Below, in pieces: positions 17,524 to 47,694 of a DNA stretch of 64,000 nucleotides. Position 1 is the stretch's first letter; each line of letters begins with the position of its first letter. This DNA is from Malacoraja senta (lineage: Eukaryota): positions 5,520,001-5,584,000 of the forward strand of contig CM075996.1 of assembly GCA_038087875.1 (NCBI GenBank), given 5' to 3'. The notes below the pieces were generated by a model, which was not told where the DNA came from, made no database searches, and worked only from the letters and a program-made list of their open reading frames with translations. The translations under genes were made by a program, and so were the position numbers.

Positions 17524-17701
17524 CATTTTTCCTCTTGTTCAAAGGGGAAAGGCCGTTGCTCGACTGCAGCGTGAGCTCTTGCAGTTCATTTGTGACCGCT
17601 TCGCTCTGCGGACTCGGGGCAGAGCCATCCTCGTCACCGTCGCCAACCCCACCACCGCCCGGCCCCTTCCCAGAGACGGGCGAGGGGAAGGCCGACTGCA
17701 T
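17524..17701 (-). CDS. MRTFA: MRTF-A N-terminal coding exon (exon 17732-17524; coding from ATG at 17701)
   Basis: Translates to MQSAFPSPVSGKGPGGGGVGDGDEDGSAPSPQSEAVTNELQELTLQSSNGLSPLNKRKN+G. PSPQSEAV.NELQEL.LQ...L.PL..RKN is the conserved MRTF-A/B segment just before RPEL1, and NELQEL favours MRTF-A. Acceptor ttttgatcgtttcag| before 17732; donor AATG|gtgagc at 17524 (phase 1). Confidence 0.88.
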
Positions 17702-18429
17702 TCGGCAAATCCACTTTGGCTTGGTTATTAACCTGAAACGATCAAAACAAAAAAGATATGTTATAAATATGAGCGCATTCTGACCGATCTACCATTTCCT
17801 AATTGGGGGACTCAAAAGAATAAAAAGAGGCTGTAATTACAAATTTCAATACTCTGGAAAGTTGCATTCTCTTTGCAGCGTCGCCGTTAAGCCGCAGAAA
17901 CAAAGAACTGCAGGTGCTGGCTAAGACACAAAAGGACACAAAGTGCAGGAGTAACTCAGCAGGTTGGGCAGCATCTCTGGAGAAACACAAAGTGCGGGAG
18001 TAACTCAGCAGGAAGAAGGGTCTCGACCCCAAACGTCCCATCCATGTTCTCCAGAGATGCTGCCTGACCTGCTGAGCTACTGCAGCAGTTTGTGTCCATC
18101 ACCCTTAAGCCGTTGGTCCATGTGAATTCTGCTGAGATAACTATCGATGATGAGACATTGAAAAACATGGATCACATTCTTTGTGTCAGGATCCATCTTA
18201 CGGAACAGGTAGGTCGGCAACAATAACCAAATTCACCACGACCATCGCGCACCCCAGGAACTCGTGAAGGTCAAGACCTCAAAGCCAGCATTCATCTCAT
18301 GGTCTTCAGGAATACAGTGACCTCCCATTCTCCTCGACAATTCAGAGGTGTGAAACCACTGCAGCAGCCACCCCCGACCACTGATAAACACCATGTGCGT
18401 CACCTGAATCACCTCCACATCCACTGACA

Positions 18430-19258
18430 GGGCGCAGGGGAGGTTTACGAGAATGATCCCGGGGACGATTGGGTTACGTATGATGAGCGTTTGACGGCTC
18501 TGGGCCTGTACTCGCTGCAGTTTAGAAGGATGAGGGAGGATCTCATTGAAACTTGCCAAATAATGAAAGGCCTGGATAGAGTGGATGTGGAGAGGATGTC
18601 TCCGCTAGAACCAGAGGGCACAGCCTAAAGGGCCTGTCCCACTGTACGAGGTAATTAAAGAGTTCTCCCGAGTTTTCCCCCGATTCGAACTCGGAGAATG
18701 TCCGTAGCGGGTCCGTAGGAGTTCGTGGATGTCTCGGAGCGGCTCGTACGAGTAAAAAGCAAAACAAAATTTCATCACGAGTATTTTTTTACTCGTGGAC
18801 ATTTTTCACAGTGTTGAAAAAATTTCACGAGTTTACCGGATTTCCCGAGTACCTACCTTTAGCATTACGAGCCGCTACGAGACATTCACGAACTCCTATG
18901 GACCCGCTACGGACATTCTCCGCGTTCGAATCAGGGGAAAACTCAGGAGAACTCTTAAATTACCTCGTACAGTGGGACAGGCCCTTCAGAATAAAAGAAT
19001 GTACCTTTACAAAAGAAATGAGGAATTTCTTTAAGCAGAGGGTGGTGAATCTGTGGAATTCATTGCCTCAGGCAGCTGTGGAGGCCAAGTAATAGAGGGT
19101 TTTTTTAAAGCGGAAATTTACAGGTTCCTAATTAGTAAAGGTGTCATAGGTTACAGGGAGAAGGCAGGAGAATAGGGTTGATAGGGAAAGATACTTCAAC
19201 CATGATCGAATGGCGGAGTAGACTCGATGGGCAGAATGGCCTAATTCTGCTCCGTTGA
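18430..19258 (+). mobile_element. CR1 3' fragment split by a MITE
   Basis: aggtttacgagaatgatcccggg...EMRNFFKQRVVNLWNSLPQ; 3'UTR. Confidence 0.85.
18629..18985. mobile_element. PIF/Harbinger-like MITE with ~120-bp TIRs, inserted in a CR1
   Basis: agggcctgtcccactgtacgaggtaatt...aattacctcgtacagtgggacaggccct; 3-bp flanks TAA/TCA; interrupts the CR1 sequence cacagcc-tca-gaataaa. Confidence 0.85.
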
Positions 19259-20118
19259 CCGATGAGAGTCTGAAGAAGGGTCTCGACACGAAACATCACC
19301 CAGTCCTTCTCTCCAGAGATGCTGCCTGTCCCACTGAGTTACTCCAACTTTTTGTGTCTATCTTCGATCTAAACCAGCACCTGCAGTTCCTTCTTACACT
19401 ATGACCAATGAACAACAAGGGGGTCAGTCAATACTTATTCATTGGCCAATGTGCCCAGCATTGTCTCTGTTTACACTGAAACAATTATGATTGTTGGGGC
19501 ATATTATCTGGTGTCAGGTCTCCATAACAGCAAGGTATTACCAGGACGACAGGGTGCTTCAAGGATGTTATCAAAGCCTCTTTAAAGCACCGGAGACATT
19601 ACAGCAATCTCTGGCCATGACCGTTCGAAATGGAGGAGCAGCATCCAAAATCTCCCACGGGCAGAACATGGTGGAGTGAAAACAGGAGGGCAGAACCTCG
19701 CAAGCTATTTGTTGGGAAACTCCTGCCCACCTGCACTAAACGCTGGGTTAGAACATAGTGGCCACAAATCGTCCGTACCACGAGGAATTGCCTTGGGCAA
19801 CAATGAATGCAAGTCCGAATAAAATGCGTAACCGCACAGCCCTCGCCAAAAAATGGGTTGCAGTTTCAAACAATGACCTTCAAGATGAGAGATTAACATT
19901 GCATGGCTAATAGCCCTTGACAATTTATTTTCTTTTGGCTTCAGGCAGCACTCAAACCATAGGCCCACAATGAAGCCCATCAAACCACATCCTTTTCAGA
20001 AATCTTCAAAGTCTATGGTTCGATGTTTCTATCACTTTCACCAGGCCTTTTGATCACCCATTTCCTAGTTCACTTTCCCCCCATTCACTTTTTGTCAGTC
20101 TCCCGTGGTCATTCTTTA

Positions 20119-20428
20119 GGGGCCTGTCCCACTGTACGAGCTAATTCAAGAGCTCTCCCGAGTTTTAAAAAAAACCGAGCTCGTGGTAAGCACGTAGAAT
20201 GTACGTAGCGGCTACGTCGGAGCTCGGGGACGTCTCTTAGCGGCTCGTAACGCTAACGGCAGGTACTCGGGGAAACGCGGTAAGCTCGTGAAGATTTTTC
20301 AACGTGTTGAAAAATGTCCACGAGAGCCCCGAGTACCTACGAGCGGCTATTACTGTAATTCTCCGAGTTCGAATCAGGGGGAAACTCGGGAGAACTCTTG
20401 AATTACCTCGTACAGTGGGACAGCCCCA
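20119..20428. mobile_element. PIF/Harbinger-like MITE
   Basis: TIR ggggcctgtcccactgtacgag ... ctcgtacagtgggacagcccc. Confidence 0.8.
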
Positions 20429-21165
20429 TTTCTCATCAAACACATTGGACATACACGCAGAGTTTGATCACAAGATGCTTCAATGTGCTGGACTGAAGGT
20501 CCTTTTAAACCTGCAGCCATGTTATTGTAAGCTATTACTGTCGTGCGTACCAAGATACTGTGCAGAGCTTTTGTTTGCGTGCTATATAATGAAACCCAAC
20601 CATACTGTGCTCAAGTACAAGCAGGTCATGCACAAGTACACTGCTAATGCAAAGGGAAAAAATACCAGAGTACAAAACAAAGATGAAACTTACCCCGCAG
20701 GTCTAGCCAGCAGTACAGACAATCACAAAAGTTAGATTACTGCGGAAAGACACTTCCGCTTTAAACGGCTGCGCAAACTGTAAAGTCATCAGCTCACAGA
20801 CCCACACACACCACCTAGCCCGGCTCAAGAACAGCACTTACTAAGACCTGGGACAAAGTGCTGCATTCAGTAAGAGAATGACTCATTCTGCTCCTCCCTG
20901 AGGCAAGGGGCAGAGAGATCCCAATGACAAAATGGAAAGCTCCAAACCACTCCTCCTCAGAACAATATATCCCCCCGCACTTTCAAGACCTGTTTTCAAC
21001 CTCACTGTAATGAGGTTGCCAAGTCAAAACAGATACTTTTATTGCCCAGCCCCAGTGTCTTTCCCGTGTGTTGTTCCAAGATTTCCACAAGAAATGACAA
21101 CAGAAACTCATGTAAGCCGATATTCTATACAAATGTATACTCTTCAGGAAGAACACTGACCATTA

Positions 21166-21449
21166 AGGGGCTGTCCCACTGTATGAGGTAATTCAAGAGT
21201 TCTCCCGAGTTTCCCCTGATTCGAACTCGGAGAATTACGGTAATAGCCGTTCGTAGGTACTCGGGGCTCTCGTGGACATTTTTCACAGTGCTGAAAAAAC
21301 TTCACGAATTACCGAGCATTACGAGCCTCTACGAGGCATCCACGAGCTCCGATGTAGCCGCCACGTACATTCTACGTACTTACCACGAGTCAGATTTTTT
21401 TTAAACTCAGGAGACCTCTTGAATTACCTCGTACAGTGGGACAGGCCCT
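21166..21449. mobile_element. PIF/Harbinger-like MITE (inverted relative to the 20119 copy)
   Basis: TIR aggggctgtcccact ... agtgggacaggccct; perfect TTA TSD at 21163-21165 and 21450-21452. Confidence 0.85.
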
Positions 21450-21461
21450 TTAGCACTTAGA

Positions 21462-21775
21462 GCGGCACGGTGGCACAGTGGTAGACTTGCTGCCTTACAG
21501 CGCTTACAACGGGTTCGATCCCGAATACTGGTGCTGTCTGTACGGATTTTGTACGTTCCTCCCGTAACCTGCGTGGGTTTTCTCCGAGGTTTTCAGTTTC
21601 CTCCCACACTCCAAAGACATACAGGTTTGTAGGTTAATTGGCTTGGTACGAATGTAAAATTGTTCCTAGTGTTTGTAGGATAGTGTTAATGTGCGGGATT
21701 CGCTGGTCGGTGCGGACTCGGTGGGCCGAAGGCCCTGTTTCCACGCTGTATCTTTAAAGTGAACCAAACTAAATA
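21462..21775 (+). mobile_element. tRNA-derived SINE (HE1-like)
   Basis: gcggcacggtggcacagtggtaga...gggttcgatccc; same tail. Confidence 0.85.
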
Positions 21776-23977: not shown

Positions 23978-24071
23978 ACAGTAAGTTCAACAGTATAACA
24001 TATACTGATTACAGTAAGTTCAACAGTATAACATATACTGATTACAGTAAGTTCAACAGTATAACATATAC
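23978..24071. repeat. 33-bp tandem repeat, ~2.8 copies
   Basis: acagtaagttcaacagtataacatatactgatt starting at 23978, 24011 and 24044. Confidence 0.92.
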
Positions 24072-24406
24072 CGACTGGTAGATGTTATACTGTCCTGACT
24101 ACGCCCCTGGGGTGATAGCCCTTCCTTGTTAGAGGGGTGGCCCCACCGGACTCTGCCCCTCAATGTTCAACAGCAGAGTTAACTTCTCAGTATATCCCAA
24201 GCATAGACCCCGGGCAGATCCGGAGCTTTGCAGCCACCGTTCACTGACCTTGAAATTTTGAATTCCCCTTTATTCTATGAAAATCGATTAAACTGCAAAT
24301 GCTAGAAATGTATTGGTTTTTTCTAGCTTTAGTTTTAGAGATACAGCACGGAAAGGGGCCCTTCGGCCCACCCAATCCGTGCCGACCAACGCTCACCCTC
24401 ACACTA

Positions 24407-24943
24407 CATAGATACATAGAAAATAGGTGCAGGAGTAGGCCATTCGGCCCTTCGAGCCTGCACCGCCATTCAATATGATCATGGCTGATCATACAACTCA
24501 GTATCCCGTACCTGCCTTCTCTCCATACCTCCTGATCCCTTTAGCCACAAGGGCCACATCTAACTCCCTCTTAAATATAGCCAATGAACTGGCCTCAACT
24601 ACCCTCTGTGGCAGAGACTTCCAGAGATTCACCACTCTCTGTGTGAAAAAGTTTTTCCTCATCTCGGTCTTAAAGGATTTCCCCCTTATCCTTAAGCTGT
24701 GACCCCTTGTCCTGGACTTCCCCAACATCGGGAACAATCTTCCTGCATCTAGCCTGTCCAACCCCATAAGAATTGTGTACGTTTCTCTAAGATCCCCTCT
24801 CAATCTCCTAAATTCTAGCGAGTATAAGCCAAGTCTATCCAGTCTTTCTTCATATGAAAGTCCTGACATCCCAGGAATCAGTCTGGTGAACCTTCTCTGC
24901 ACTCCCTCTATGGCTATAATGTCCTTCCTCAGATTTGGAGACC
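24407..24943 (-). mobile_element. CR1 3' fragment nested in a SINE
   Basis: WSPNLRKDIIAIEGVQRRFTRLIPG...YGEKAGTGY; flanked by cacacta. Confidence 0.9.
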
Positions 24944-26473: not shown

Positions 26474-26912
26474 CATAGAAACATAGAAAATAGGTGCAGG
26501 AGTAAGCCATTCGGCCCTTCGAGCCTGCACCGCCATTCAATATGATCATGGCTGATCATCCAACTCAGTATCCTGTACCTGCCTTCTCTCCATACTCCCT
26601 GATCCCTTTAGCCACAAGGGCCACATCTAACTCCCTCTTAAATATAGCCAATGAACTGGCCTCAACTACCTTCTGTGGCAGAGAATTCCACAGATTCACC
26701 ACTCTCTGTGTGAAAATGTTTTTTTCTCATCTCGGTCCTAAAAGACCTCCCCCTTATCCTCAAACTGTGACCCCTTGTTCTGGACTTCCCCAACATCGGG
26801 AACAATCTTCCTGCATCTAGCCTGTCCAACCCCTTAAAATTTTTGTACGTTTCTCTAAGATCCCCCCTCAATCTTCTAAATTCTAGCAAGTACAAGCCGA
26901 GTCTATCCAGTC
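26474..26912 (-). mobile_element. CR1 3' fragment
   Basis: Nearly identical to 24407-24943. Confidence 0.9.
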
Positions 26913-28847: not shown

Positions 28848-29234
28848 CTGAAAAAAAAGCACTAAAAATGTGGAGCACAAAAAAACAGGTCATTTGAACC
28901 AACAGGTCAAGTTCCCTCCCCAGAAGCTGCCCGATTCTCCCAGTTCATCCAACACTGTTTTACTGCAGAAAGAAAAATCGCCCAGAAATAAAGGGGTGCA
29001 CCCAGAAATACCACACAAGAGATTCTCAATGAGGTACGCATGATGTCAGGTTTCCATCAGATGCAGACACAAGGAACTGCAGATGCTGGTTTACAAAAAA
29101 CATGCCAAGTGCTGGATTAACTCAGCCGACCAGCAGCATCTCTGGAGAATATGGATAGGTGGCGTGCCGGGCTGGGACCCCTTCAGTGAAGAAGAATCCT
29201 GACCCAAAACATCACCTATCTGTGTTCTCCGTCC

Positions 29235-29730
29235 AAGAAATTGCAGAGAATTGCGGATGCAGCCCAGACCATCACACAAACCAACCTCCCTTCCATTGAC
29301 TCCATTTACTTCTCGCGCTACCTCGGCAAGGCCAGCAGCAAAGATCGTAGAAAGTATCTTTGGCCAGCAGCATAATCAAGGACGAGACGCACCCCGGCCA
29401 CTCCCTCTTCTCCCCACTCACATCAGGCAAAAGGTATCGAAGTGTGAAAATGCACATCTCCAGATTCAGGGACAGTTTCTCCCCCAGCAACTGAACGATT
29501 CTACCAACAACCAGAGAGCGGTCCTGAACTACTATCTACCTCATTGGAGACCCTCGGACTATCTTTAATCGGATTTTATCTTGCAGTAAACATTATTCTG
29601 TTTATCATGTATCTGTACACTGTGGACGGCTTGATTGAAATCATGTATTGTCTTTCTGCTGACTGGTTAGCACGCAACAAAAGCTTTTCACTGTACCTCG
29701 GTACACGTGACATTAAACTAAACTCATCAC
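29235..29730 (+). mobile_element. Rex1/Babar-like 3' fragment
   Basis: Decayed LQRI.DAAQTIT.TNLPSI...HPGHSL.SP..SG.RYRS in shifting frames; 3'UTR ctgtacctcggtacacgtgac. Confidence 0.7.
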
Positions 29731-30338
29731 TAAACTCAGATATGCTACCTGACCCACTGATTTACTCCAGCATTGCACTTCTCTTCTCTCCCCCCCGCCC
29801 CCCCCCCTCAGCCCCCCAGATACAGTTTTGAAAGGTGGAGAGTTAGGCAGCTTGAAAGAAGAGAATATGACTTTGATAAATAACACCCAAGAAAGTTACA
29901 AACACAACTCTTCACAACGCCCATTCACCCAAAGTATAAATTGTAACAGATACACAAAAGGAAGCAAGACTAGCCATGTTACACCTACACCCGGGGGCAG
30001 ATATTTAGAACTTCTGGCCTGCCACGTTTGGACAGGTATGTATAATCCTGACTTGCATTCTTTCGCCCCGAGCTGCAGAGGCATTGATCAGTGCAGCTGT
30101 CGGCCCAGGCTGAGGCAAAACAAAGGAGCAGACTGAAGCAACGCCATTCTTTATAATAACCGCAACCACCTCCAACTTGAAAACCCGTAATACGAGACGA
30201 TTTTAATGGGTATCGGTATTCTTCAGTCGGTGAATATGTAGTTCATTCAGGATAGATTTTCTTCTCGATTGTCCCCAGTCCCGTCAAGTAACAGGGGTGC
30301 AACAAACACACGATGAAAGTCCAACCATGTACAATGAG

Positions 30339-30570
30339 CTGAAGATAGACACAAAAAGCTGCAGAAACTCAGCAGGTCAGGCAGCATCTCTGGAGAATAG
30401 GAATAGGTGACATTTTGGGTTGGGACCCTTCTTCAGACTGAAGAAGGCTCTCGACCCGAAACGTCACATATTCCTTTTTACCAGAGATGCTGTCTGACCC
30501 GCTGAGTTACTCCAGCTTTTTGTGTCGATCTTCAGTTTAAACCAGCATCTACAGTTCCTTCCTACACATT
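30339..30570. mobile_element. Palindromic Penelope terminal-repeat unit (representative of dozens, e.g. ~500-750, 12910-13106, 22560-22797, 27149-27368, 40816-40970, 42868-43070, 44550-44750, 53428-53608, 63100-63298)
   Basis: Shared core actcagcgggtcaggcagcatctctggag...gggtcgagacccttcttcag and its reverse complement, ending ccagcatctgcagttccttc. Confidence 0.75.
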
Positions 30571-31032
30571 CAATGAGCTGACTGGTACAGTACACTGGCT
30601 TTCTAACATGCCTGCACATTGCACACAGATTAAATCCGTGTCACTCTGCCATTCTTGTTCTAAGAGTGTCCACGTTATTTCTGGCATTTTAATCTAAAGA
30701 GCCATTGGCAGAACAGCTGATCACTGCCGCAAGGACCCTGCAAAGTTTCAAGGAGGGAGTAGCATACGCATTCTTGGGATTAGTCTCCCCGAGATACTTC
30801 TACGCCCATGTGTGACAATACACAGATATATCGTCTCCTCTCATTTCATGCACAACCATCATGACATAACCACGACGGCCCTATCGATTAACAAAAGCAT
30901 TTTGTACAGCAGCGAGACTTCATGAACTTGCGCCATAAACCCGTCGAAGGACTGACTGAACTCACTCCTTACAGGCATTAAAAAACTAATTACAACAAAA
31001 TTACACAACGCTGAAAGTACTTTCAGTACTCC

Positions 31033-32560
<1,528 letters not shown>

Positions 32561-33189
32561 CAAGATTTTGTACTTTAACAATGTCAACTTTACAATTCAT
32601 TTAAAACACAAAGTGCTGGAGTAAGTCGGCGGGTCACTGTGGGGGCGGAATGGATAAGCGACGTTTCAGGTTGGGACCCTTCTTCCATGTATCAGGATAC
32701 ATGTTAATAGCCTAGTTTCCTTGCACTGCTTGTCCTTGAAGAACATTCCCCTTCATTTAATGCAAGTGAATCATCAACTGGTTAATCAAAAATAGATTTT
32801 ATTTTTTTAATTGATGACAATATCATGAGTTTTACCTTGCACTTTATCTAATCTGGGGCCAGCACAAAGTTTGAGGAGGTTTTAAATAATTCAGCTGAAG
32901 GGAGACTTCAGGAATACCAGCAGCAACCTATTCAATTAGTAACCTGACTCACTGTTTGCTGTCTGTCTACCATGGCTGTTGCTACTTCCATAAATCTGGC
33001 ACAAAGTGGGGTGAATGGCCTTGTGCCCCATGACTCACTCTCTGCAGGTAAAGGAGAAATGACCCTGCAGATGAAGCAAGCTGAGCAAGCAAAAGAAAAA
33101 ACACAGAAGGCATTAAATCTAGTTCGTAAGTGATAGGACCACATTAAGGCCACTTGGCCCATCAAGTTTAATCTGCCATTCAATCATTC

Positions 33190-33752
33190 AATGATGAAGT
33201 GGGGGGGGGGGGGTATGATGAAGTTGGGGTGGGGGTCTGAGGAAGTGATGGGGGTGGGGGGAGGAGTCTGATGAAGGGGGGGTCTGATGAAGTAACGGGG
33301 TGGGGGAAGGAGCCTGATGAAGTGTCAGGGAGACACGATGAAGTGTCAGGGGACCTGATGAAGTGCCGGGGGGACCTGATGACATGTCGGGGGGACCCGA
33401 TGAAGTGTCGGGGCAGGGGAGGGAGTCTGATGAAGTGACGGGGAGGGGGGGGGGGAGAGTCTGATGAAGTGACAGGGCAGGGGGGTCTGATGAAGTGATG
33501 GGGCAGGAGGAGACCTGATGAAGTGTCGGGGGGGGGGGATGAAGTGTCGGGGGGGCCTGGTGAAGTGTCGGGGGGGCCTGATGAAGTGTTTAGGGCAGGG
33601 GAGGGAGTCTGATGAAGTGACGGGCGGGGGGTGGGGAATTTGATGAAATGACGGGGGCAGGGGGGTCTGATGAATTGTCGGGGGGGGGGCCTGATGAAGT
33701 GTCGAGGGGGGGGGCCTGATGAAGTGTTGAGGGGGGGGCCTGATGAAGTGAA
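33190..33752 (+). repeat. G-rich minisatellite, ~23 units of CTGATGAAGTG plus variable G-tract spacer
   Basis: Directly visible. Confidence 0.93.
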
Positions 33753-33859
33753 TGATCATGTTAATAAAGTGTCTGAGTGGCATTAGAAAACCAAAATGCA
33801 TAAAGGCAACAAAATAAAATACCATTAAAGACTGAACAGCTAATCTGGCCACATTTGCT

Positions 33860-34180
33860 TTTAGTCTTTAGTTTTAGTTTTAGAGACAGTGCGGAATCAG
33901 GCTCTTCAGCCCACCGAGTCCGCGCCGACCAGTGATCCCCGCGCATTAACCATCCTGCACACACTAGGGACAATTTTTACATTTAACCAAGCCAATTAAC
34001 CGACCGACCTGCACGCCTTTGGAGTGTGGGAGGAAACAGAAAATCTCGGAGAAAACCCACGCAGTCACGGAGAGAACGTACAAACTCCGTACAGACAGCA
34101 CCCGTAGTCAGGATCGAACGCGGGCCTCCGGTGCTGTAAGCGCTGCAAGGCAGCAACTCTACCGCTGCGCCACCGTGCCG
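33860..34180 (-). mobile_element. tRNA-derived SINE (HE1-like); other copies at ~9250-9720, 15097-15397, 16380-16697, 16845-17095, 24330-25170, 34495-34780, 42516-42810, 45790-46302, 51630-51915, 54890-55190, 61006-61245
   Basis: Reverse complement of the tRNA-like head (ggcagcaactctaccgctgcgccaccgtgc) and a (taaac)n tail. Confidence 0.85.
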
Positions 34181-35394
34181 CAGATCATATTCTGCAAACC
34201 ACCCGCTGGCTCAGTTTCTCTGTTAGTAAAGCAGGGCCTGCCGGGCACCAAGGACAGAGCTGCATTTCACAACATTTTATAAGCCTTTAACTGGGTTATC
34301 ACTGTCCAACAGCCTCCATTATCAACCACGAGTCTCCATAGCAACCTGAGCCTCAACCCATCACAAATATCCTACTTGTCCTATTTATCTCTACCCCCAC
34401 CTTCTCCGCAAGTTTAAACTAACTTGTCCACTAACTTGTTCCTCAGTCCACTGATGCCACGTGGCCTGTGGAGAATTCCTGTAGTGGCCATATTTAGTGC
34501 AGCGGTAGAGTTGCTGGCTGAGACACGGTTCGATCCTGGCTACGGGTGCTTGTATGTATGGAGTTTGTACGTTCTCCCCATGACCTGCGTGGTTATTCCC
34601 CAAGAACTTTGGTATCCTCCCGCACTCCAAAGACGTCCTGGTTTGTAGGTTTATTGTCTTGGCATAAATGTAAAAATTGTCCCTGGTGTAGAATAGCGTT
34701 AATGTGCGGGGATCACTGGTCGGTGCGGACTCGGTGGTCCGAAAGGGCCCGTTTCTGCGCTGTATCTCCAAACTAAACTAAAAATATTTGTTTCAAATGT
34801 CCAACATATTCCAACAAACCCTCGTTAGTAGGTATAAGGCGATTGCAGGTAGCAGTCCTGAGGAAATTAATGGTATTTTTCTTTAAAAAGAACTGGAGCA
34901 GAACCTCAAGGTATCTGTGGTCTGATGGGGTAAGGCGTTTGATCTTTAATTGCACCCTCAGTGTAACCCAATTGTACAGTTAATATTTCCCAATACTTCT
35001 ATTAACCCATCTCTAAAATCCATAGATCAATAAGCTGATAGAACCAAGGCTATCAAATGAACAACGTACAGAATTTCACCGGAACAGAAATTCTGTAATT
35101 CAAAACTTAGTGCAGCTCAACTTATAAAAAATATGCTGAGAGAGACAAGAAGCCAATAAAATAATTGAAGATTTGTAATTTACTAATGTAAAAGTCCAAT
35201 TACATTTGTAAAGCAGCGAGTGGTCATAAGGTCATAAGTGATAGGAGCAGAATTAGGCCATTCGGCCCATCAAGTCCACACCATTCAATCATGGCTGATC
35301 TATCTTTCCCTCCTAACCCCATTCTCCTGCCTTCTCCCAATAACCCCTGACACCCACACTAATCAAGAATCTATCTATCTCTGCCTTACAAACA

Positions 35395-36441
35395 TACTAG
35401 TGGGGTACCGCAAGGCTCAGTGCTGGGACCCCAGCTATTTACAATATATATTAATGATTTGGACGAGGGAATTGAATGCAACATCTCCAAGTTTGTGGAT
35501 GACACGAAGCTGGGGGGCAGTATTAGCTGTGAGGAGGGTGCTAGGAGGCTACAAGATGACTTGGATAGGCTGGGTGAGTGGGCAAATGCATGGCAGATGC
35601 AGTATAATGTGGATAAATGTGAGGTTATCCACTTTGGTGGCAAAAACAGGAAAGTAGACTATTACCTGAATGGAGGCAGATTAGGAAAAGGGGAGATGCA
35701 ACGAGACCTGGGTGTAATGGTGCACCAGTCATTGAAAGGTCAGTCATTGAAAGTAGGCATGCAGGTGCAGCAGGCAGTGAAGAAAGCGAATGGTATGTTA
35801 GCATTCATAGCAAAAGGATTTGAGTATCGGAGCAGGGAGGTTCTACTGCAGTTGTACAGGGTCTTGGTGAGACCATACCTGGAGTATTGCGTACAGTTTT
35901 GGTCTCCTAATCTGAGGAAAGACATTCTTGCCATAGAGGGAGTACAGAGAAGGTTCACCAGACTGATTCCTGGGATGTTAGGACTTTCATATGAAGAAAG
36001 ATTGGATAGACTCGGCTTGTGCTCGCTAGAATTTAGAAGATTGAGGGGGGATCTTATAGAAACTTACAAATTCTTAAGGGGTTGGACAGGCTAGATGCAG
36101 GAAGATTGTTCCCGATGTTGGGGAAGTCCAGAACAAGGGGTCACAGTTTAAGGATAAAGGGGAAATCTTTTAGGACTGAGATGAGAAAAACATTTTTTAC
36201 ACAGAGAATGGTGAATCTCTGTAATTCTCTGCCACAGAATGTAGTTGAGGTCAGTTCATTGGCTATATTTAATAGGGAGTTAGATGTGGCCCTTGTGGCT
36301 AAAGGGATCAGGGGGTATGGAGAGAAGGCAGGTACAGGATACTGAGTTGGATGATCAGCCATGATCATATTGAATGGCGGTGCAGGCTCGAAGGGCCGAA
36401 TGGCCTACTCCTGCACCTATTTTCTATGTCTATGTTTCTAT
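35395..36441 (+). mobile_element. CR1 (HER1-type) LINE, 5'-truncated: RT C-terminus + 3'UTR
   Basis: SGVPQGSVLGPQLFTIYINDLD...SKFVDDTKL...YCVQFWSP...RRLRGDLIETYK; frameshift near 36070; ctatgt tail. Confidence 0.93.
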
Positions 36442-39251
36442 CCGTGATAGATGTAAAATTGATTATAAATTCTACTATATCTTGAGGGATATTAATGGTC
36501 ATGATCACAGTGAATGGCGGTGCTGGCTCGAAGGGCCGAAAGGCCTACCCCTGCACCTATTGTCTATTGTTAAACATCAATTCAAGCAAATTGGCCTGTC
36601 AAAAACATTTACACTGTCAAATGTTTGCACATTTTAAGTTGTCGTTGGTTTTGAAATATTCGGAACATGGGCTTTTCAATAAATTTTGGCAAAAGTCTTT
36701 ACTAAATCAAACCTCAAAAACAACATATCCAGTTACATATGGCCGACATAAACTATGGCCCCGAGTGCACTACTCGTAATTCTGTGGAGAACTGCCAAAC
36801 AGCTTCAGCCTGTTCATCAGCTTCTGGCCGACATGCACACCTGCACATTACGTTAAGGAATAAGCCAGAGGTCAGATACTGATGCAACTAATCTTCCACA
36901 CTACCGCTGGGCTCTGCTCTGGTGCACTGCGCAGCGGCACTTAATATCCTGAATAACCAGCCCCACACCATTATGCCACGGTTTAAATAACATAGCACAC
37001 CTCAACTCACCCACATGATTTGCAGACCTCAATTAAAAAAAAAAAAAGTGGGGATGTTCCCATTTTACTTCAATCATGAAGATTCAATTATTGTGTAGAA
37101 AAGAACTGCAGATGTTGGTATATATCGAAGATAGACAGCATCTCTGGGGAACATAGATATGTGACGTTTCAGGTCGGGATCCATCTTCAGACTGAAGAAG
37201 GGTCCCGACCCAAAACGTCACCCATCCTTTCTCATATCTCTAGTTTCCCTCTCCCCTGACTCTCAGTCCGGTGATCCGAAACATCACCTATTCCTTTTCT
37301 CAAGAGATGCTGCCTGACTCACTGAGTTACTCCAGCACTTTGTGTCTATCTTTGATTAAGTTATTGATTGAACGTGCGTTTAAATAATGACCGTAACTTT
37401 TTTTTAAAATAAATAATTTTGCCCCTATTTTGATGTCTCTGACCTGCATATTTATAAATCAGTCCAAAGAACTTTAACAGCAGTGAGCTACCGAGAAGCT
37501 ATTTGGGTAGTTATGGGGCAGAGCCTCAGTATTCACCACCCAAGACCAGTCTGCTTCATGGCTTAGCTGTGGCAAAAAGGCCTGGAGAATATCTGGGCCT
37601 GTGGAGGTGTGAAGTGAAGCACAGGCAGCAAGTGTGAGCAGATCAAGCAGTGTACAGCCCTGGCACTCGAGTGGCCCTCGAGTGACTGAGGCTGACAATC
37701 TGGTCTTCAACCCATAACAAGGCAGAACACTGGAACACTTTGAACATTTCCAGAGTAGACTTGTAACGGTGGCACTAGGATACACTGGTAGAGCTACTGC
37801 CTGAGTGGCCAATGACCCACGTTCAATCCTGACCTGCAAATCTGTGGAGCTTGCCCGGCTTTCTTTCGACTGCCTGCGTTTCCATCGGGTGCGCGGTTTT
37901 ACCTACCACATCCCAAGAACAGTTTGGTCGGTGAATTGGCCACTATAAACTGCCCGATTTCCCCCTGGTGTAGGTGGGCAATGGAAATGCGGGGAGAATA
38001 AATTGCAAGGAATACCAGTGGAGCTCTGCGAGACAACCTGGACTTGATGGGCCGAATGGCTTGCTTCTACGTCACAAGAAAATGTGAAGGCAAGTCACTC
38101 ATGACAAAAGTTATCTCTGCAAAAGAATTCTAGGAAGCCAGCAGGGGCACACCTACAAATGCAGAGTTGTGCAATTAAGTTCTAGATAGGGACCATTTGA
38201 AAATGCAAAGTCATTAACCTGAAGGCAAATTATTAGCTGGATAAGGAAGCGAGTTGAGTTGCAGGAGATAGAGTAGGAGCGATTAGCGATGCCCCACAAG
38301 CAACTGTATTGACTACAATTATTCACAGTGCATAAAAGCTACTTAGATTATAGGATAGAAAGCTGCAGATCAAACACTGGCGATTCCACAAAGATAGCCG
38401 ACATTTTATGCTGGGCACTTGGAAACATTACATTTCAAAGATTACATTAACAGTTATAAACAAATATGCAAAACCATAGCAAATGGATTTTAATGCAAGC
38501 AAATAGGAGGTCATCAACTTTTGATCCAAAAAGAAAATGACTAATTCACTAGTAAAAAGAGAAACAACGGTGATCCAAAGACTGAGGTCCATGTAAAAAA
38601 ATTAAAATGCCAGGGACTGGTGTCAGAAAGTAATAAAAAGAACAATTTGCCATTATATTCAAGGGCAATAGAAACAAAACTTATTTTGCAGCTGAAAGAA
38701 GGGAAGAGATTGACCCTTTTTTCACCTTCCATCACAGTGAGGAATGTGGAGGAGTCACTGTGGTGGATGTTTATGTTCAAATGTAATTTGTGTATTCTGT
38801 TGCTTTTTATTGGTGTGACTGTTTAAAATAGCAAATGAAATTCCTCGTATGTTGCAAAACATACTTGGCTAATAAAGTGTTAATGAAATTGTGATTACAA
38901 AGTTCTCTCTTGTGGGCTGGAGATGGAGAACCGTGGGCTGATATAGAAACTCCGAACATGATATATTAACCTCAGAGGAAGCTCAAGGAAGTTTGTTCAA
39001 GTGACAACTGGAGAGATAACACAGGCCAAGGCTGCATTTCCTAAAACTCACAGAGTTACGAGGTGACATGATTGAATGAGGGGTAAATTCCTTTGGGTGG
39101 ATGGAGAGAAACCATTTAAGGTGGTGTATTAATGATAATTGGGGCATGGACATTGTCTGATTTAGATGTCGCAGAACATGGAAACCAGCTCTTCGGCTCC
39201 ATTTGTCCATGCCAACCAAAATGCCCTCTCCACACTTGTCCACATTTGACC

Positions 39252-39382
39252 TTCTTCTTCTTTCGTGTGGCGTGCACAGCCTAAAGTTGTAGGACAACTT
39301 GTTCTATTTGATCTTCCGTTTGTGCACGTCAAGTTGATTGCATTAGTCGAAACAGGGCGGACCACGTGCAATCTTCCACCCC
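39252..39382 (-). mobile_element. HDV-ribozyme short retroelement, copy 2 (7-nt deletion in P3/L3)
   Basis: TSD cacatttgacc at 39241-39251 and 39383-39393. Homologous to copy 1; inserted in a CR1-type tail. Confidence 0.85.
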
Positions 39383-39959
39383 CACATTTGACCCATATCC
39401 CTCTAAAGCTTTCTTATACTTTGTTGAGCAATGACAGAAAATCTAGGAGACAGGCATGTCAGGCAGCATCCATGGAGAAAGAAAATAAGAGTTCACGTAC
39501 CTCTCCAAATGTCGTTTAAATGTTGTTAATTATCACCTCTGGTAGCTCATTCAATATACCCACCATCCTGTGTGTGAAACAGTTGCCCCTCAGGTTCCTA
39601 TTAAATCTTTCCCCTCTCACCTCCCACCTTCAGTATGAGCAAGTGTAACCACCAAAAATCATCAACTTTGTTTACATTTTGTACCTCTCAGAAGTGGCCG
39701 TAGCAATTTATAAAATAATTTTACCACTTGCAATTATTTTCATTGAAGAAAGTGTATTTAAGTGCACTCGACACTTTAATTTCACGTCTCATGTATTTTG
39801 TGTTTTTATGACTGTTGGCAGATCAATTTCCCACCTGGGATAAATAAAGTTCTATCATATTGTATCGAAAGGAACAACATAACATCAATGAAGTCAATTC
39901 TGTCACAGCCTGGCAAAGCAAACTGGGGATTCTGCTAAAATAGTGATCACTGCTTATGG

Positions 39960-40564
39960 ATTCAAGTTCAAGTGAGTTTATTGTCATGTGTCCCTGATAG
40001 GACAATGAAATTCTTGCTTTGCTTCAGCACAACAGAACATAGTAGGCATTGACTACAAAACAGATCAGTGCGTCCATATACCATTCTATAAATATATACA
40101 CACATGAATAAATAAACTGATAAAGTGCAAAGAACAGATAATGGGCTATTAATGTTCATAGTTTTGTCCGAGCCAAGTTTAATAGCCTGATGGCTGTGGG
40201 GAAGTAGCTATTCCTGAACCTGGTCGTTGCAGTCTTCAGGCTCCTGTACCTTCTACCTGAAGGTAGCAGGGAGATGAGTGTGTGGCCAGGATGGTGTGGG
40301 TCCTTGATGATACTGCCAGCTTTTTTAAGGCAGCGACTGCGATAGATCCCCTCGATGGAAGGGAGGTCAGAGCTGATGATGGACTGGGCAGTGTTTACTA
40401 CTCTTTGTAGTCTTTTCCTCTCCAGGGTGCTCAAGTTGCCGAACCAAGCCACGATGCAACCGGTCAGCATGCTCTCTACTGTGCACCTGTAGAAGTTAGA
40501 GAAAGAGTCCTCCTTGACAAACCGACTCTCCGTAATCTTCTCAGGAAGTAGAGGCGCTGATGTG
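39960..40564 (-). mobile_element. Rex1/Babar-like LINE 3' part, truncated by the gap
   Basis: NFYRCTVESMLTGCIVAWFG...LQRVVNTAQSII...KDPHHPGH...LLPSGRRYRS...RFRNSYFPTAIRLLN; 3'UTR with aataaa and (cttgaa)n. Confidence 0.85.
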
Positions 40565-40764
40565 NNNNNNNNNNNNNNNNNNNNNNNNNNNNNNNNNNNN
40601 NNNNNNNNNNNNNNNNNNNNNNNNNNNNNNNNNNNNNNNNNNNNNNNNNNNNNNNNNNNNNNNNNNNNNNNNNNNNNNNNNNNNNNNNNNNNNNNNNNNN
40701 NNNNNNNNNNNNNNNNNNNNNNNNNNNNNNNNNNNNNNNNNNNNNNNNNNNNNNNNNNNNNNNN
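40565..40764. other. Assembly gap (200 N)
   Basis: Run of exactly 200 N. Confidence 0.99.
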
Positions 40765-41874
40765 CACCCGCCAGCATTTGGCCCGCATCCCACCAAACCC
40801 TGTCCTATGCATGTGTCACAAGGAACTGAAGATAGACACAAACTGCTGGAGTAACCCGGCGGGCCAGGCAGCATCTCTGGACAGAAGGAATGGGTGACGT
40901 TTCGGGTCGAGACCCTTCTTCAGAGTCTGAAGAAGGGTCTCGACCTGAAAGATCATCCAGAGATGCTGATTGTCCCTCTGTCCTATTCATGTACCTGTCG
41001 AACGACCTCAATTACCTCCTCTGGCAGCTTGTTCCATCCACCCACCACCCCTTGTGCGCAAACAAATTATTGAACAATTTTAATAATAGATGTAAATGTA
41101 GAGAGAAATGTAGAGTCGTCCATAAAGGAGAGATATTAAAATAGTGAAGTTAATTTTATTCACCCATCAGCCTCCTGATGTTTGAGTCATTGCACTCTTT
41201 TTTAAAGGCACTCTGATGGCGATCAGCGATCAACAGAGTTAGATAGAGCTCTAGGGGCTAGTGGAGTCAAGGGATATGGGGAGAAGGCAGGCACGGGTTA
41301 TTGATTGGGGACGATCAGCCATGATCACAATGAATGGTGGTGCTGGTGCGAAGGGCAGGAATGGCCTCCTCCTGCACCTATTTTCTATGTTTCTATGTTA
41401 ACAGCTATTAAAGAATTATTGCTTAGCATTTGGCCTATGGACATCTTTCCACATGCCTCATCAATCCATTTAGTTCCTGCTGTGCCTACGTGTAAGACAT
41501 GTTTGTTGTTTTGGATGATTTCCCGTTTCCAGCTCCCTGCCCACTCACGTAACGTTAATTGTGGTTAATTAAAATCTACATCTTTGACTAATGTTTTAAT
41601 GATTTATCCTGATCTTTTTTGAAGTGATTCCGTTTTCAAGGTGTGGGTGAAACCATTTATCGACCATCTCGAACCACTCTCGAGGGTGGTGGTGATGGTG
41701 GTTGGTTGCCTCCTTGAACAGCTTCCCATCTTAGAGAGGGAGCTCCCTGAAGGAATCCCCACATGTTCCCACACCAGGATGATGTGCGTCATGCGGGGGG
41801 ATTTGCATCTGGTGGTGTCCACATCCATCTGGTGCCATTGCTGTCGTCCTCTGTGGTAGAATCATAGAGTCTTA

Positions 41875-42060
41875 AGGGCCTGTCTCACGTAGGTGACTCT
41901 TTAGGCGACCACCAGGGACTAGTTTTAATGGAATTCACCTACGACACCTGGCAACAACCTACGACAGCAAGAATTGTCGCCAAAAAATTGTCAACATGTT
42001 GAAAATTTTGCGGCAGCCGCCTGTAGTCGCCCAAAAAATCGCCTAAGTGGGACAGGCCCC
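41875..42060. mobile_element. PIF/Harbinger-like MITE, different internal subfamily
   Basis: agggcctgtctcac ... gtgggacaggcccc; TTA/TCA flanks; central palindrome tcaacatgttga. Confidence 0.7.
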
Positions 42061-43107
42061 TCACAGCGCGGAACGAAGCCCTTCGGCTCAACCTGCCCAC
42101 GCCAGTCAACGTATCCCATCTACGTTAGTCCCGCATACCTGCATTTGACCCATATCCCTCTGAACCTGCCCAATCCATGCACCTGTCAAAAATGTTTCGA
42201 TACTACCTGCCTCAACCACCTCCTTTGGCTGCTCGTTCCATACACCCACCACACTTTACGTGAAAATCAGGCTCTAGGTGACGTACGGAATATCAGATTT
42301 ATAGTGATGGATCGGGTTCCAGTTAAGTGGGTGGATTTATCATGGAAGTTGTTGAGATTGTTGCCTGCATGATCGCAACTCAGTCAACTGGAGGTTTCCA
42401 TTGTGCTCTTCATTTGTGCCTTTATAGATGAGGCATAGGTTTAGAAGTGTCAGTGGTGAGTCAGTTGCTGCCTGATACTCAGCTCTGGCCTTCGCTTGCT
42501 ATTGCAGTATTTATGTTTAGTTTAGAAATACAGCGCAGAAACAGGCCCTTCGACCCACTGTGTCCGCAACCACCAGCGACCCCCGCACATTAAACCTACC
42601 CAACGCACACTAGAGACAATTTTTTACATTTACACGAAGCCAACAGCGTCTTTGGAGTGTGCGAGGAAACTGAAGATCTTGGAGAAAACCCACGCAGGTC
42701 ACGGGGAGAACGTGCAAATTCTATACAGACAGCGCCCATAGTCAGGATCGCACCCGGGACACTGGCGTTGTGAGGGAGCAACTCTACCGCTGCACCACCG
42801 TGCTGCCCTGTGGCTGCTCCATTTGACTTTCTGGTTCATTGTGCGGCACACCAGTTACTCGATGTGTCAGAAGGAACTGCAGATGCTGTTTGAAACCGAA
42901 GATAGACGCCAAAGGCTGGAGTGACTCAGCGGGACAGGCAGCATCTCTGGAGAGAAAGAAGGGGTGATGTTTCGGGTGTGAAGAAGGGTCTCGACCCGAA
43001 ACGTCACCAATTCCTTCCCTCCAGCGATGCTGCCTGTCCAGCTGAGTTACTCCAGCTTTTTGTGTCTATCAGCAGTTACTTGATGTTTAAGAAGGAACTG
43101 CAAATGC

Positions 43108-43584
43108 ACCCCCTCCACATACACCTGGATCTCCTGCCATCAGGCAAGAGATATCGCAGCATCAAAGCCCGGACTACAAGACTGCTAAACAGCTTCCTGC
43201 CATATGCTGTGAGGCTGCTAAACAGCCACTCTGTGCTCACAGTCACCTGATTCTGTGGCTTGGCACGGACACTATAATAACTGGCACTGGCCACTTCAAT
43301 AACTGGCACTGGCCACTTCAATAACTGGCACTGGCCACTCAAATCAGCCACCCCGGACATGTTTATGATTGGTCTTACTGTATTTTAACGTTGTTTGTAT
43401 CTATTTTAACTTATACTGTTCCATCAGGGACTGGATTGTTTTAGTGTTGTTATTATTATTATTATGTGTGAAATGTTTTAAATTTCATGTGCGATGCTCC
43501 GGTATTCCCTGGGAAATGTCTTTTCGTTTTGCACTGCACAACTGTTGCTTGCAAGATGACAATAAAGGAATTGAATTGAATTGA
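43108..43584 (+). mobile_element. Rex1/Babar-like 3' fragment nested in a Penelope unit
   Basis: LLPSGKRYRSIKARTTRLLNSFLPYAVRLLN; three copies of a 22-bp internal repeat; aataaa and (attga)n tail. Confidence 0.8.
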
Positions 43585-45895
43585 ATGCTGGGAAAATCGA
43601 AGGGAGACAAAAATGCTGGAGAAACTCAGCGGGTGAGGCAGCATCTATGGAGCGAAGGAAAAGGTTACGTTTTGGGTCGAGACCCGAAACGTCACCTATT
43701 CCTTCGCTCCATAGATGCTGCCTCACCCGCTGAGTTTCTCCAGCATTTTTGTGTACCAGCAGTTACTTGATGTTCTATTTTGATTCGGTTCCTGCAGAGC
43801 AACTTGGAAAGTGAAGCAGCAGCATTTTCTTCCTTCCAAACTGCAGATGCATCAACCTCCACGTTCTTCCCCTTACCCACAGCTTCATTGTGTTGAAATT
43901 GAAACTGCAGCTCGATCTTTCTTGTAGTTTCAGGTTTGCAAACTCCTTGCTCTTTTGGTTTCTCCCACAATCTGTTTTAACTCTTCAACGCATCCTTATT
44001 CAGTGTGTTTTGTCATGAGTTCCTGAAGTGAATAAAATCTCTGCTGTTGGCCCTATTTAATGTGGGTGATATTATTCTTAATACCATCCTTTGTCAGGAG
44101 TGACGTGGTCAGACTAACAAACCCCCTGAAGAATCACAGACATTTGCTTTATGGTGGGACCAAATCATATTTGATGTCTCTTACAGTCATACAAGGCTAA
44201 TTTCAGATTGTGAGACTACAGTTCCTTTCTTGTACTCCCACCTTTAATCCTTATTCCGTACGGCATCTTGCTTCAGAAGTGTTTCTTATTATGGCCATGT
44301 TGTGTTGTCCATGGAATTTCCGTTCAATACAAGTCTGCATTAACAGAACAGTTTTAATGTAGCCAAGGTTAGACTCGGGAGTATTCTCAGGCAAAATCCG
44401 ACACAGAATTAGTCATTGCCAGTTGCTGAATCACCCTATTCCTAACCTTTTCATCCAGTACGCATTCTGTTCCGATACCGCCTCCATCGTGCAGCTTGCT
44501 TCCATCCAAACAAACGTCATCCACCTCTCTCCCAATCCATTCATCTGTCTTAAGGTAGACAAAAATGTTGGAGAAACTCAGCGGGTGAGGCGGCATCTAT
44601 GGAGCGAAGGAAATAGGCAACGTTTCGGGTCTAAACCCTTCTTCAGAAGGTATTGAGTCTGAAGAAGAGTTTCGACCCAAAACGTTGCCTATTTCCTTCG
44701 CTCCATAGATGCTGCCTCACCCGCTGAGTTTCTCCAGCATTTTTGTGTGCCACATGGAATGGCCTGTGTTTGTGTACATTTCTGCCTCTCCTGCTGTCTC
44801 TTTGCGGAATTCCCTGCCACAGAGGGCAGTGGAGGCCAAATCATTGGATGGATTTAAGAGAGAGTTAGATAGAGCTCTAGGGGCTAGTGGAATCAAGGGA
44901 TATGGGGAGAAGGCAGGCACGGGTTGCTGATTGGGGACGTGATCACAATGAATGGCGGTGCTGGCTCGAAGGGCCGAATGGCCTCCTCCTGCACCTATTT
45001 TCTATGTTTCTGAGGAGACATGCAATGGCCAGTTTGCCTTCAAACTAGACTAATAGTGTTACTTCTTGTGGCTAGATTCTCAATTCTTGGGGTATCAGTG
45101 GAGTGTTAAACTTTGTGGTGGAAACTATGGTGGAGTAGCTTGTTAATCTATGCTAGCTGCATCCAGTTCTGGTCAGTGAACTGCACGTAATATGAGTGTG
45201 AGAAATGAGCTGAGAAGATCACAAACCTGGTCACGGGTACGAAGACGGCTCAGGACAATTTTCAATGTGTTGCCCCTGGAAGTAGGGAACCTCGAGTATA
45301 CAGAGAGACGTGAACATTATAGACCAGTGTCAATTGCAATTTCAAACTGAAGCTTGGCCAGTAATAAAATTGGAGCTGAACGTCAAAGTGCTCGAGTATC
45401 TCAGCGAGTCAGGCAGCATCTGTGGAGGGAATAGGATTCAGATCGGGATGCTTCTTCAGACCCTCCACAGATGATGTGTTAAAGAAGGAACTGCAGATGC
45501 TGGAAAATCGAAGGTACACAAAAATGCTGGAGAAACTCAGCGGGTGCAGCAGCATCTATGGAGCGAAGGAAATAGGTAACGTTTCGGGCCGAAACGTTAC
45601 CTATTTCCTTCGCTACACAGCATTTTTGTGTACCCTCCACAGATGATACTTGACCTGCTCAGTTACTCCAGCACGTTGATGTTAAACTCAAGGTTCCAGT
45701 ATCTAGTTCCTCGCGTGTCACATAAAATAGAGCCGTAGTCCAAAGGATTGGGGGGAAAACTGGGGCAGAAATGCAAGTCCTGCCGTGTGGTTTAGTTTAG
45801 AGATACAATGTGGAAACATGCCCTTCGGCCCACTGAGTCTGCCCCGACCAGCGATTCACCGTACACTAGCACTATCCTACAGACTAGGGACAAAC

Positions 45896-46095
45896 GACAA
45901 TAGGTGCAGGAGTAGGCCATTTGGCCCTTCGAGCCAGCACCGCCATTCAATGTGATCATGGCTGATCGTCCCCAACCAGTACCCCGTTCCTGCCTTCTCC
46001 CCATATCCCCTGACTCCGCTATCTTTAAGAGCCCTATCTAGCTCTCTCTTGAAAGCATCCAGAGAACCCGCCTCCACCGCCCTCTGAGGCAGAGA
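45896..46095 (-). mobile_element. CR1 3' fragment nested in a SINE
   Basis: SLPQRAVEAGSLDAFKRELD...; SINE halves lie on both sides. Confidence 0.85.
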
Positions 46096-46813
46096 CAATT
46101 TACAATTTTTACCAAAGCCAATTAACCTACAAACCCGTACATTTTTGGAGTGTGGAAGGTAAACGGAGCACCTAGGGAAAACCCACGCAGGTCACGGGGA
46201 GAAGGTACAAACTCCGTACAGACAGCACCCATAGTCGGGATCGATCACCGGTCTCTGGCGCAGTGAGGCAGCAACTCTACCGCTGCGCCACCGTGCTGCC
46301 CTAGCAGACAGTGTGGGCTTTCTAGGTCACTCACTGAAAGAACATGAAACCACTAGGATCCTAGACCTTGTCCTTGCCTGTCTAGGCCGTGTTTCCTCTC
46401 TGCCAACCATCCTGTGGATCCTGTCACAGTTTGATAGTAATCTCTTGACTTGCAACGTCAGGTCCTGCTCTGCTGCCGTGAGATGCAGTACTCGACTTAC
46501 TTTCACAACTGCCTTGTGGTCTGCGTAGAAGCAGCATTTTAAAAATGTAAGTTGCAAAGCGTCGTACAGAGGACTTAAACCTTCAAAGGTTTATTTATGA
46601 CAGGAGAAAAAAAGTGGTCCTATCTGCTTGTGGAGCTTGTCAGCATGACACGCTGCCCTGTTATTTCCTACGTCGAGGCAGCTGGGCGGAAACACTCGGT
46701 CGGCTGCCACTTCTGCATTGAGAGTGGAGTTAGAAATGGAGAACTTTCTCAAAGCGGGGCGTGGAAGCACCCGCTCAGTGGCACTAACCATGTCTGTCCC
46801 TTCTCTCCGGCAG

Positions 46814-46879
46814 TGCTGCAACTGAAGCTTCAGCAGCGGCGGACACGCGAGGAGTTGGCCAGCCAGGGAATCATGCCAC
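46814..46879 (+). CDS. MRTFA: MRTF-A RPEL1 exon (66 nt, phase 1-1)
   Basis: Acceptor cccttctctccggcag|, donor |gtaagt. Encodes (V)LQLKLQQRRTREELASQGIMP(P). LKLQQRRTREEL matches MRTF-A rather than MRTF-B (LRLQQRRTREQL) or myocardin. Confidence 0.93.
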
Positions 46880-47642: not shown

Positions 47643-47694
47643 ATGGTGGCATCGGTTGGACCAGCGGCAAAATGTCTACCGGTGCACAGTACAG
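47643..47694 (+). CDS. Candidate alternative first coding exon of MRTF-A (downstream of RPEL1 exon)
   Basis: ATG in strong Kozak context (GGCATGG), encodes MVASVGPAAKCLPVHST+G, ends at ACAG|gtaagc in phase 1, the same phase as the RPEL1 exon donor. Confidence 0.4.

What the first reader, a model, noticed from the sequence alone, without database searches (positions are those of the whole stretch)
17524..46879. Consecutive MRTF-A coding exons lie on opposite strands across a 200-N gap
Seen: the minus-strand exon ends ...AGG AAA AAT G| and the plus-strand exon starts |TG CTG CAA CTG AAG. Joined, they read RKN-V-LQLKLQQRR, the known contiguous MRTF-A sequence. They point away from each other, and I found no N-terminal exon between the gap and 46814. 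The Rex1-like element running into the gap does not resume on the other side. Inference: the contig left of the gap is mis-oriented, so automated annotation would truncate MRTFA. Less likely are a real inversion or two divergent paralogues.
Basis: partly seen in the sequence, partly recalled or inferred. Interest (0 to 1): 0.7.

Follow-up and report, generated by a model that had tools for sequence, protein, structure and literature searches.

The report
Flipped contig splits skate MRTF-A gene
The first exons of an ordinary skate gene (MRTF-A) sit on the opposite strand from the next exons, with the switch at a scaffolding gap, so this is most likely an assembly orientation error rather than new biology.

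Summary
MRTF-A exon A (17732→17524, minus) and the RPEL1 exon C (46814–46879, plus) face away from each other across the only gap (200 N, 40565–40764). Cassette exon B (2804→2685, minus) follows A in the right order; alternative first exon X (47643–47694, plus) follows C. B joins C in gene models of 17 of 18 shark, ray and skate species, including two skates. T/A skew changes sign at the gap (−0.071 left, +0.050 right; 0 of 5000 permutations as strong), and both gap edges lie in unrelated repeats. Flipping the left block restores A–B–C–X. A scaffolding orientation error is most likely (0.85); a real recent inversion (0.09) is not excluded, because no read spanning the gap and no junction from this species was seen. 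Side finding: exon A carries one extra C, absent from contigs of two relatives. It puts the conserved GTG start out of frame and a weak ATG in frame. Useful for curation, low in biological novelty.

The parts
2685..2804 (-). MRTF-A cassette exon B (120 nt, phase 1-1, AG/GT intact; in-frame ATG at 2778 where skate RefSeq models start).
   Evidence: tblastn 87.5% over 40 aa to Mobula; 22/23 to Amblyraja radiata; all 7 proteins at E<=1, of 8 candidates, are chondrichthyan MRTF-A; splice sites
17524..17732 (-). MRTF-A exon A (homologue of human exon 3, inferred), 209 nt
   Evidence: contigs of runs X13 and X22 align at 17524-17734 only and go on unlike
17712..17714 (-). GTG in strong Kozak context (A at -3, G at +4), the valine of the conserved KVD motif; probable non-AUG start of the long isoform (inferred)
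   Evidence: context; KVD stands upstream of the exon core in 77 of 98 exon-A-bearing proteins; two UniRef models begin at this valine, 100 residues before the exon-C Met; human exon 3 has a GTG start per PMC8079280 (passages)
17699..17701 (-). ATG in weak context; in frame with the conserved core only because of the extra C
   Evidence: no difference is listed at these bases in the X13 or X22 contigs
17678..17680 (-). CCC run, one base longer than in relatives: a +1 shift that ends the GTG frame at TGA 17636-17634
   Evidence: frame switch in tblastn; one base left out at 17678 in the X13 and X22 contigs; frames
39960..40564 (-). 3' end of a LINE-like element (ORF part 40156-40564), cut by the contig end
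   Evidence: PF09004, 21.3 bits against cut-off 21, on one frame; Atlas hits to chordate clusters, one with PF09004 on 22% of members (recognition 2259, under the 2300 mark, so weak); 6 other places (8 hits) in the window match the ORF
40565..40764 (.). 200-N scaffolding gap; the strand switch point
   Evidence: skew change point
40765..40960 (.). Right gap edge: starts inside short interspersed repeats unrelated to the left-edge element
   Evidence: self-BLAST
46814..46879 (+). MRTF-A exon C, encoding RPEL1 (human exon 4 equivalent); ATG at 46873 is the start of RPEL1-less models
47643..47694 (+). Coding part of alternative first exon X (ATG to GT donor, phase 1), like the N-termini of Pristis and Rhinoraja MRTF-A isoforms.
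   Evidence: two-sequence profile, iE 2.2e-8, next hit 1.3; coordinates

Best explanation
One ordinary MRTF-A gene of a skate (closest listed protein: Amblyraja radiata) was broken into contigs at repeats inside its long introns. The scaffolder joined two of them with a fixed 200-N spacer in the wrong relative orientation. In the animal, the left block (at least 40.5 kb, with exons A and B) most likely reads on the same strand as exons C and X, and its far left end, outside the window, is what adjoins position 40765. Shown: the exons, their strands, order and splice phases, the gap, the repeat edges and the skew switch. Inferred: that the flip is an assembly error; that the left block is the piece to flip (a misplaced second-haplotype copy would look the same); and that the gene works as in other vertebrates, as an actin-regulated SRF co-activator with RPEL motifs.
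For: The strand switch must lie between 17733 and 46813, and the window's only gap lies there. A and B are in transcript order on the left block, C and X on the right. Of 71 listed chondrichthyan isoforms, 11 join A-B-C, 6 join A-C and 26 join B-C. B-C joins occur in 17 of 18 species, including the skates Amblyraja and Rhinoraja (my count). After masking 40.5% as repeats, T-A skew is negative in 10 of 10 4-kb bins left of 40001, and positive in 5 and zero in 1 of the 6 bins after it. The best single change point is 39,500 (T-A) or 41,000 (T-A plus G-C); 0 of 5000 block permutations reached it. TA skew is reported positive along genes in mammals and bony fish (PMC2927911, passages). Both gap edges lie in unrelated repeats. 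A YaHS v1.1 assembly has gaps of exactly 200 N (PMC12134992, passages). Exon B and all splice sites are intact, and the exon A core is unchanged.
Against: No direct test succeeded: no genome is held, no read or contig was laid across the gap, and no RNA junction from this species was seen. A heterozygous or recent real inversion also breaks assemblies at its breakpoints and would keep the old skew. The bootstrap interval of the change point is wide (95%: 29,000-45,500 for T-A; 35,000-46,000 combined). The skew rule was not tested in cartilaginous fish. The +1 base in exon A could be read as early decay of a silenced exon. Which program made the gap is not known.
Confidence: 0.85

Rival explanations
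1. A real, recent or polymorphic inversion of a block of more than 40 kb inside the MRTF-A gene, with one breakpoint in the gap. Transcripts from the upstream promoter would skip the now antisense exons A and B and splice to exon C. That would leave mainly isoforms starting at the exon-C ATG or at exon X, which lack a whole RPEL1; exon A would be decaying.
For: The assembly as given shows it. Repeats at both edges could seed a rearrangement. Exon A has a frameshift absent in two relatives. An RPEL1-less isoform starting at an exon-4 ATG exists in human (PMC8079280, passages), so the outcome could be viable.
Against: The breakpoint coincides with a fixed-size scaffolding gap. Exon B, all splice sites and the exon A core are intact. 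Exon A shows no excess of substitutions: 4 are shared by both relatives against the window, and 4 are private to X22 (my reading of table 3). The +1 falls just where it brings an ATG into frame, which fits a still-used exon as well. Gene models of two other skates join B to C.
Confidence: 0.09
2. Two divergently transcribed MRTF-A paralogues: a minus-strand copy continuing left of the window, and a plus-strand copy whose first exons are hidden in a large gap.
For: The true gap size is unknown, and the region left of position 1 could not be seen. The skew would also switch at a shared promoter.
Against: The two sides carry complementary, non-overlapping exons, with no exon seen twice. The isoform lists give no sign of a second full-length MRTF-A locus in 18 species (only one partial 246-aa Hemiscyllium model lies on another, 107-kb contig). 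Both sides match MRTF-A, not MRTF-B or myocardin. No clear CpG island lies beside the gap.
Confidence: 0.03
3. The orientation is real, and full-length mRNA is made by trans-splicing between a minus-strand A/B transcript and a plus-strand C transcript.
For: The splice phases match and the exons are intact.
Against: It needs a real inversion plus a mechanism for which I found no support here. The listing (10 of 13 papers, titles and abstract starts only) showed no such vertebrate case. Intact exons are explained more simply by an assembly flip.
Confidence: 0.01

Closest known systems
Chondrichthyan MRTF-A (e.g. Amblyraja radiata XP_032869275.1, Mobula hypostoma XP_062918793.1)
   Same: Exon C 22/22 identical; exon A core 33/33 (Mobula); exon B 22/23 (Amblyraja); exon X like the Pristis and Rhinoraja isoform starts; matching splice phases.
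   Different: Exons A and B lie on the opposite strand from C and X in this assembly. Exon A has one extra base that breaks the frame kept in relatives.
Human MRTFA transcript variants (PMC8079280, passages)
   Same: A GTG-start exon 3 is followed by an RPEL1 exon 4 ending in an ATG; alternative first exons exist.
   Different: Exons B and X were matched only to chondrichthyan proteins. In the window the GTG frame is shifted.
Contig orientation error at a Hi-C scaffolding gap
   Same: Fixed 200-N spacer, repeat-filled edges that do not continue, and a strand and skew switch at the join.
   Different: Not confirmed with reads or Hi-C; the scaffolder is unknown. That short contigs are often misoriented is my own knowledge, not taken from a paper read here.

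Membership tests
MRTF-A (myocardin family) | RPEL1 motif (RRxxxEL) encoded by its own exon | tested here: met
   PF02755, 25.3 bits against cut-off 23; 20/21 identical to solved MKL1 chains
MRTF-A (myocardin family) | A-type rather than B- or myocardin-type RPEL1 exon | tested here: met
   1 difference from a named MRTF-A (P0205); 4 differences from each of 6 named MRTF-B/MKL2 representatives and from a named myocardin. No chondrichthyan MRTF-B was retrieved, so the comparison is with bony vertebrates.
MRTF-A (myocardin family) | N-terminal exon of the long isoform closer to A than to B | tested here: met
   30-33 of 33 residues against four shark and ray MRTF-A; 20-24 of 33 against four named MRTF-B. 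A mammal-type A representative also scores only 23, so the test rests on the shark match.
MRTF-A (myocardin family) | Open frame from the GTG start through exon A | tested here: not met
   The +1 base gives TGA at 17636-17634; an ATG at 17701 is in frame instead. This lowers 'intact GTG-started long isoform', not the gene's identity.
MRTF-A (myocardin family) | RPEL2/3, basic, Q-rich, SAP, leucine zipper and activation domains downstream | not testable with these tools
   No such exon lies in 46880-64000; they are expected right of the window, and no genome is held.
Scaffolding mis-orientation | Strand switch coincides with a fixed-size gap | tested here: met
Scaffolding mis-orientation | No long read supports the present join; reads or Hi-C support the flipped join | not testable with these tools
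Scaffolding mis-orientation | The species' own mRNA joins exons across the gap | not tested
Rex1/Babar LINE | Reverse-transcriptase domain that groups with the Rex1 clade | not testable with these tools
   The RT part is cut off by the gap; only the C-terminal PF09004 piece is present; its link to Rex1 is recalled.

The most novel reading that the evidence does not exclude
The inversion is real in this skate: a block of over 40 kb carrying the GTG-start exon and the cartilaginous-fish cassette exon is flipped inside MRTF-A. The animal would then have lost its long three-RPEL isoforms (with exon A starting to decay), or would build them by splicing between transcripts of opposite strands. A smaller, likelier novelty independent of the orientation: a one-base insertion has swapped the conserved GTG start for an ATG start in this lineage or individual.
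Probability: 0.1. Interest if true: 0.65.

Novelty: not a real feature. Interest (0 to 1): 0.17.

Why it matters
If it is an assembly error, it matters for curation only. A block of at least 40 kb should be flipped, gene models would lose exons A and B, and synteny scans would score a false inversion. Exon order plus intron skew is a cheap way to flag such joins. If the inversion were real, it would be a natural loss of the long MRTF-A isoforms in a wild vertebrate, useful for asking what RPEL1 and the N-terminal extension do; PMC8079280 (passages) calls the significance of the variants unclear. The +1 base would matter modestly if fixed, as a switch from a non-AUG to an AUG start. The listed teleost proteins lack the KVD motif, and nearly all begin at a Met ahead of the same core, so such a switch has a parallel.

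Tried and rejected
Own genome: none held, so the region left of position 1 could not be read. Laying X1 and X2 (organism A) on 17440-17900 gave zero depth over exon A, although the index lists X1 at 1.00 and X2 at 0.89 of 37 sampled words. The tool filters some records and read about 88% of X1, so the hole proves nothing, and the extra C could not be read directly in organism A. The loose-end letters at the exon were not shown, being crowded out by hits to a repeat at 17457-17505; the exon that follows A in X13 and X22 was therefore not seen. A candidate short-isoform first exon at 10984 (minus; 8 of 10 residues like Pristiophorus) was rejected: profile iE 0.18, at least 10 of 200 Markov-resampled windows score higher, and a stop follows at codon 13. 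A candidate upstream exon at 37262 (iE 0.019) lies inside a repeat and was rejected. Profiles for four other alternative or downstream exons found nothing convincing. No Rfam match was found. No earlier findings were returned. Literature: 'skate, genome, MRTFA' gave one unrelated paper; 'MKL1_L, MKL1_S, GTG' gave only the review; some searches were seen as listings only. The DUF1891-Rex1 link was not found in PMC13343379 (passages) or in the listing. No supplements were read. No fold or complex was predicted, as neither bears on orientation.

Full report
Observation. The window has one gap, 200 N at 40565-40764. Exon A lies at 17732→17524 on the minus strand and exon C at 46814-46879 on the plus strand. 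Both have AG/GT ends and the phases match. Exon C encodes RPEL1 (Pfam 25.3 bits, cut-off 23) and is 22/22 identical to shark and ray MRTF-A. The exon A core is 33/33 identical to Mobula and Hemiscyllium MRTF-A. The gene is MRTF-A rather than MRTF-B or myocardin: exon C differs at 1 position from a named MRTF-A and at 4 from six named MRTF-B and one myocardin. No shark MRTF-B was retrieved for this comparison.

What else is there. Exon B (2804→2685, minus, 120 nt, phase 1-1) is a cassette between A and C. It is 22/23 identical to the start of the Amblyraja radiata model, which points to a skate. All 7 hits of 8 candidates for it are chondrichthyan MRTF-A. Exon X (47643-47694, plus) matches the N-termini of Pristis and Rhinoraja isoforms (iE 2.2e-8). 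Among 71 listed chondrichthyan isoforms, 11 join A-B-C, 6 join A-C, 26 join B-C without A, 13 join another first exon to C, and 15 lack a whole exon C. Isoforms of one species are not independent; by species, 17 of 18 have a B-C model (my count). No exon downstream of X lies in the window.

Geometry. The left block reads A then B leftward; the right block reads C then X rightward. Flipping the left block gives A-B-C-X. Flipping the right block in place gives C-A-B, which is wrong.

Where the strand switches. After masking 40.5% of the window as repeats (within-window self-BLAST and TRF only), T-A skew is negative in all 10 bins of 4 kb left of 40001. It is positive in 5 and zero in 1 of the 6 bins after it. 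Overall it is -0.071 on the left and +0.050 on the right. The best change point is 39,500 (T-A) or 41,000 (with G-C); 0 of 5000 block permutations were as strong. The 95% bootstrap ranges are wide: 29,000-45,500 and 35,000-46,000. TA skew is reported positive along genes in mammals and bony fish (PMC2927911; 12 of 27 passages seen); it was not tested in skates. Read that way, the whole left block has long been transcribed leftward and the right block rightward, starting at or near the gap. This places the switch but cannot tell an assembly flip from a recent real one.

Gap edges. The left edge cuts a LINE-like ORF bearing PF09004 (21.3 bits, cut-off 21); the name Rex1 is recalled. The right edge begins in other short repeats. 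A YaHS v1.1 assembly has gaps of exactly 200 N (PMC12134992; 7 passages); what built this assembly is unknown.

Reads. Four of 24 listed runs were laid on 17440-17900. X13 and X22, from two other organisms, each gave one contig that aligns at 17524-17734 only (record positions 108-317 of 463, and 225-434 of 2259) and goes on unlike the window on both sides, as spliced cDNA would. Neither run is on record as RNA. The letters beyond the exon were not shown. X1 and X2, from organism A, gave no cover over the exon, which proves nothing. So there is no direct test of the join.

Side finding. Exon A has CCC at 17680-17678 where both relatives' contigs have one base fewer; tblastn switches frame there. 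The conserved KVD motif stands upstream of the core in 77 of 98 exon-A-bearing proteins. Its valine is a GTG in strong Kozak context at 17714-17712. Two UniRef models begin at this valine, 100 residues before the exon-C Met, and human long isoforms start at a GTG in exon 3 (PMC8079280; 7 passages). That this valine is the human start is inferred; it agrees with my recall of the primary paper, which I did not see. The extra base ends that frame at TGA 17636-17634 and brings a weak-context ATG at 17701 into frame. The index lists X1 as holding all 37 sampled words. The chance that none of them overlaps the extra base is about 0.02 if sampling is random, so the base is probably in X1's data. X1 may be the assembly's own source, so this is not independent support. 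X2 lacks about 4 words, the number expected from one difference anywhere or from patchy cover. Whether the base is an error, a polymorphism or a fixed change stays open.

Weighing. A scaffolding orientation error explains all of it with no new biology (0.85). A real recent inversion (0.09) could also break an assembly at this point, could be viable through RPEL1-less isoforms, and could explain the frameshift as decay. Against it, exon B, the splice sites and the exon A core are intact, and the +1 sits where an ATG rescues the frame. Divergent paralogues (0.03) would need duplicated exons that were not seen. Trans-splicing (0.01) has no support here. I found nothing in print on this locus and no earlier finding.

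Verdict. The sequence pattern is real in the assembly, but most likely not in the animal. Interest 0.17.

Noticed in passing
window 17678-17714: One extra C shifts the conserved GTG start out of frame and a weak ATG (17701) into frame; it is absent from two relatives' contigs. Error, polymorphism or fixed change is undecided.
   Followed up: partly
window 2685-2804: Cassette exon B was matched only to chondrichthyan MRTF-A. It holds the first in-frame ATG used by many ray and skate gene models, perhaps because annotation misses the upstream GTG.
   Followed up: partly
window 47643-47694: Alternative first exon seen among the listed proteins only in Pristis and Rhinoraja; it would give an isoform without RPEL1.
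   Followed up: partly
window 10984-10937 (minus): 8 of 10 residues resemble a shark short-isoform first exon, in the expected place, but the score is not above chance and a stop follows.
   Followed up: yes
window 10420-10878: Minisatellite of 21 bases, 21 copies, 91% matches, in the A-B intron.
   Followed up: no
window 31246-32084 and 33191-33750: An 840-base TG microsatellite and a G-rich degenerate tandem array, 7-9 kb from the gap.
   Followed up: no
window 35363-36094: Fragment of a LINE reverse transcriptase (PF00078, E 4e-12), with similar fragments elsewhere in the window.
   Followed up: no
window 52001-52750: CpG-rich stretch (GC 0.53-0.58, CpG o/e 0.9-1.0) downstream of exon X; it looks like a repeat by its open frames but was not tested.
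   Followed up: no
window 40476-40564: The LINE ORF changes frame about 70 bases from the contig end: an old mutation or a contig-end error.
   Followed up: no
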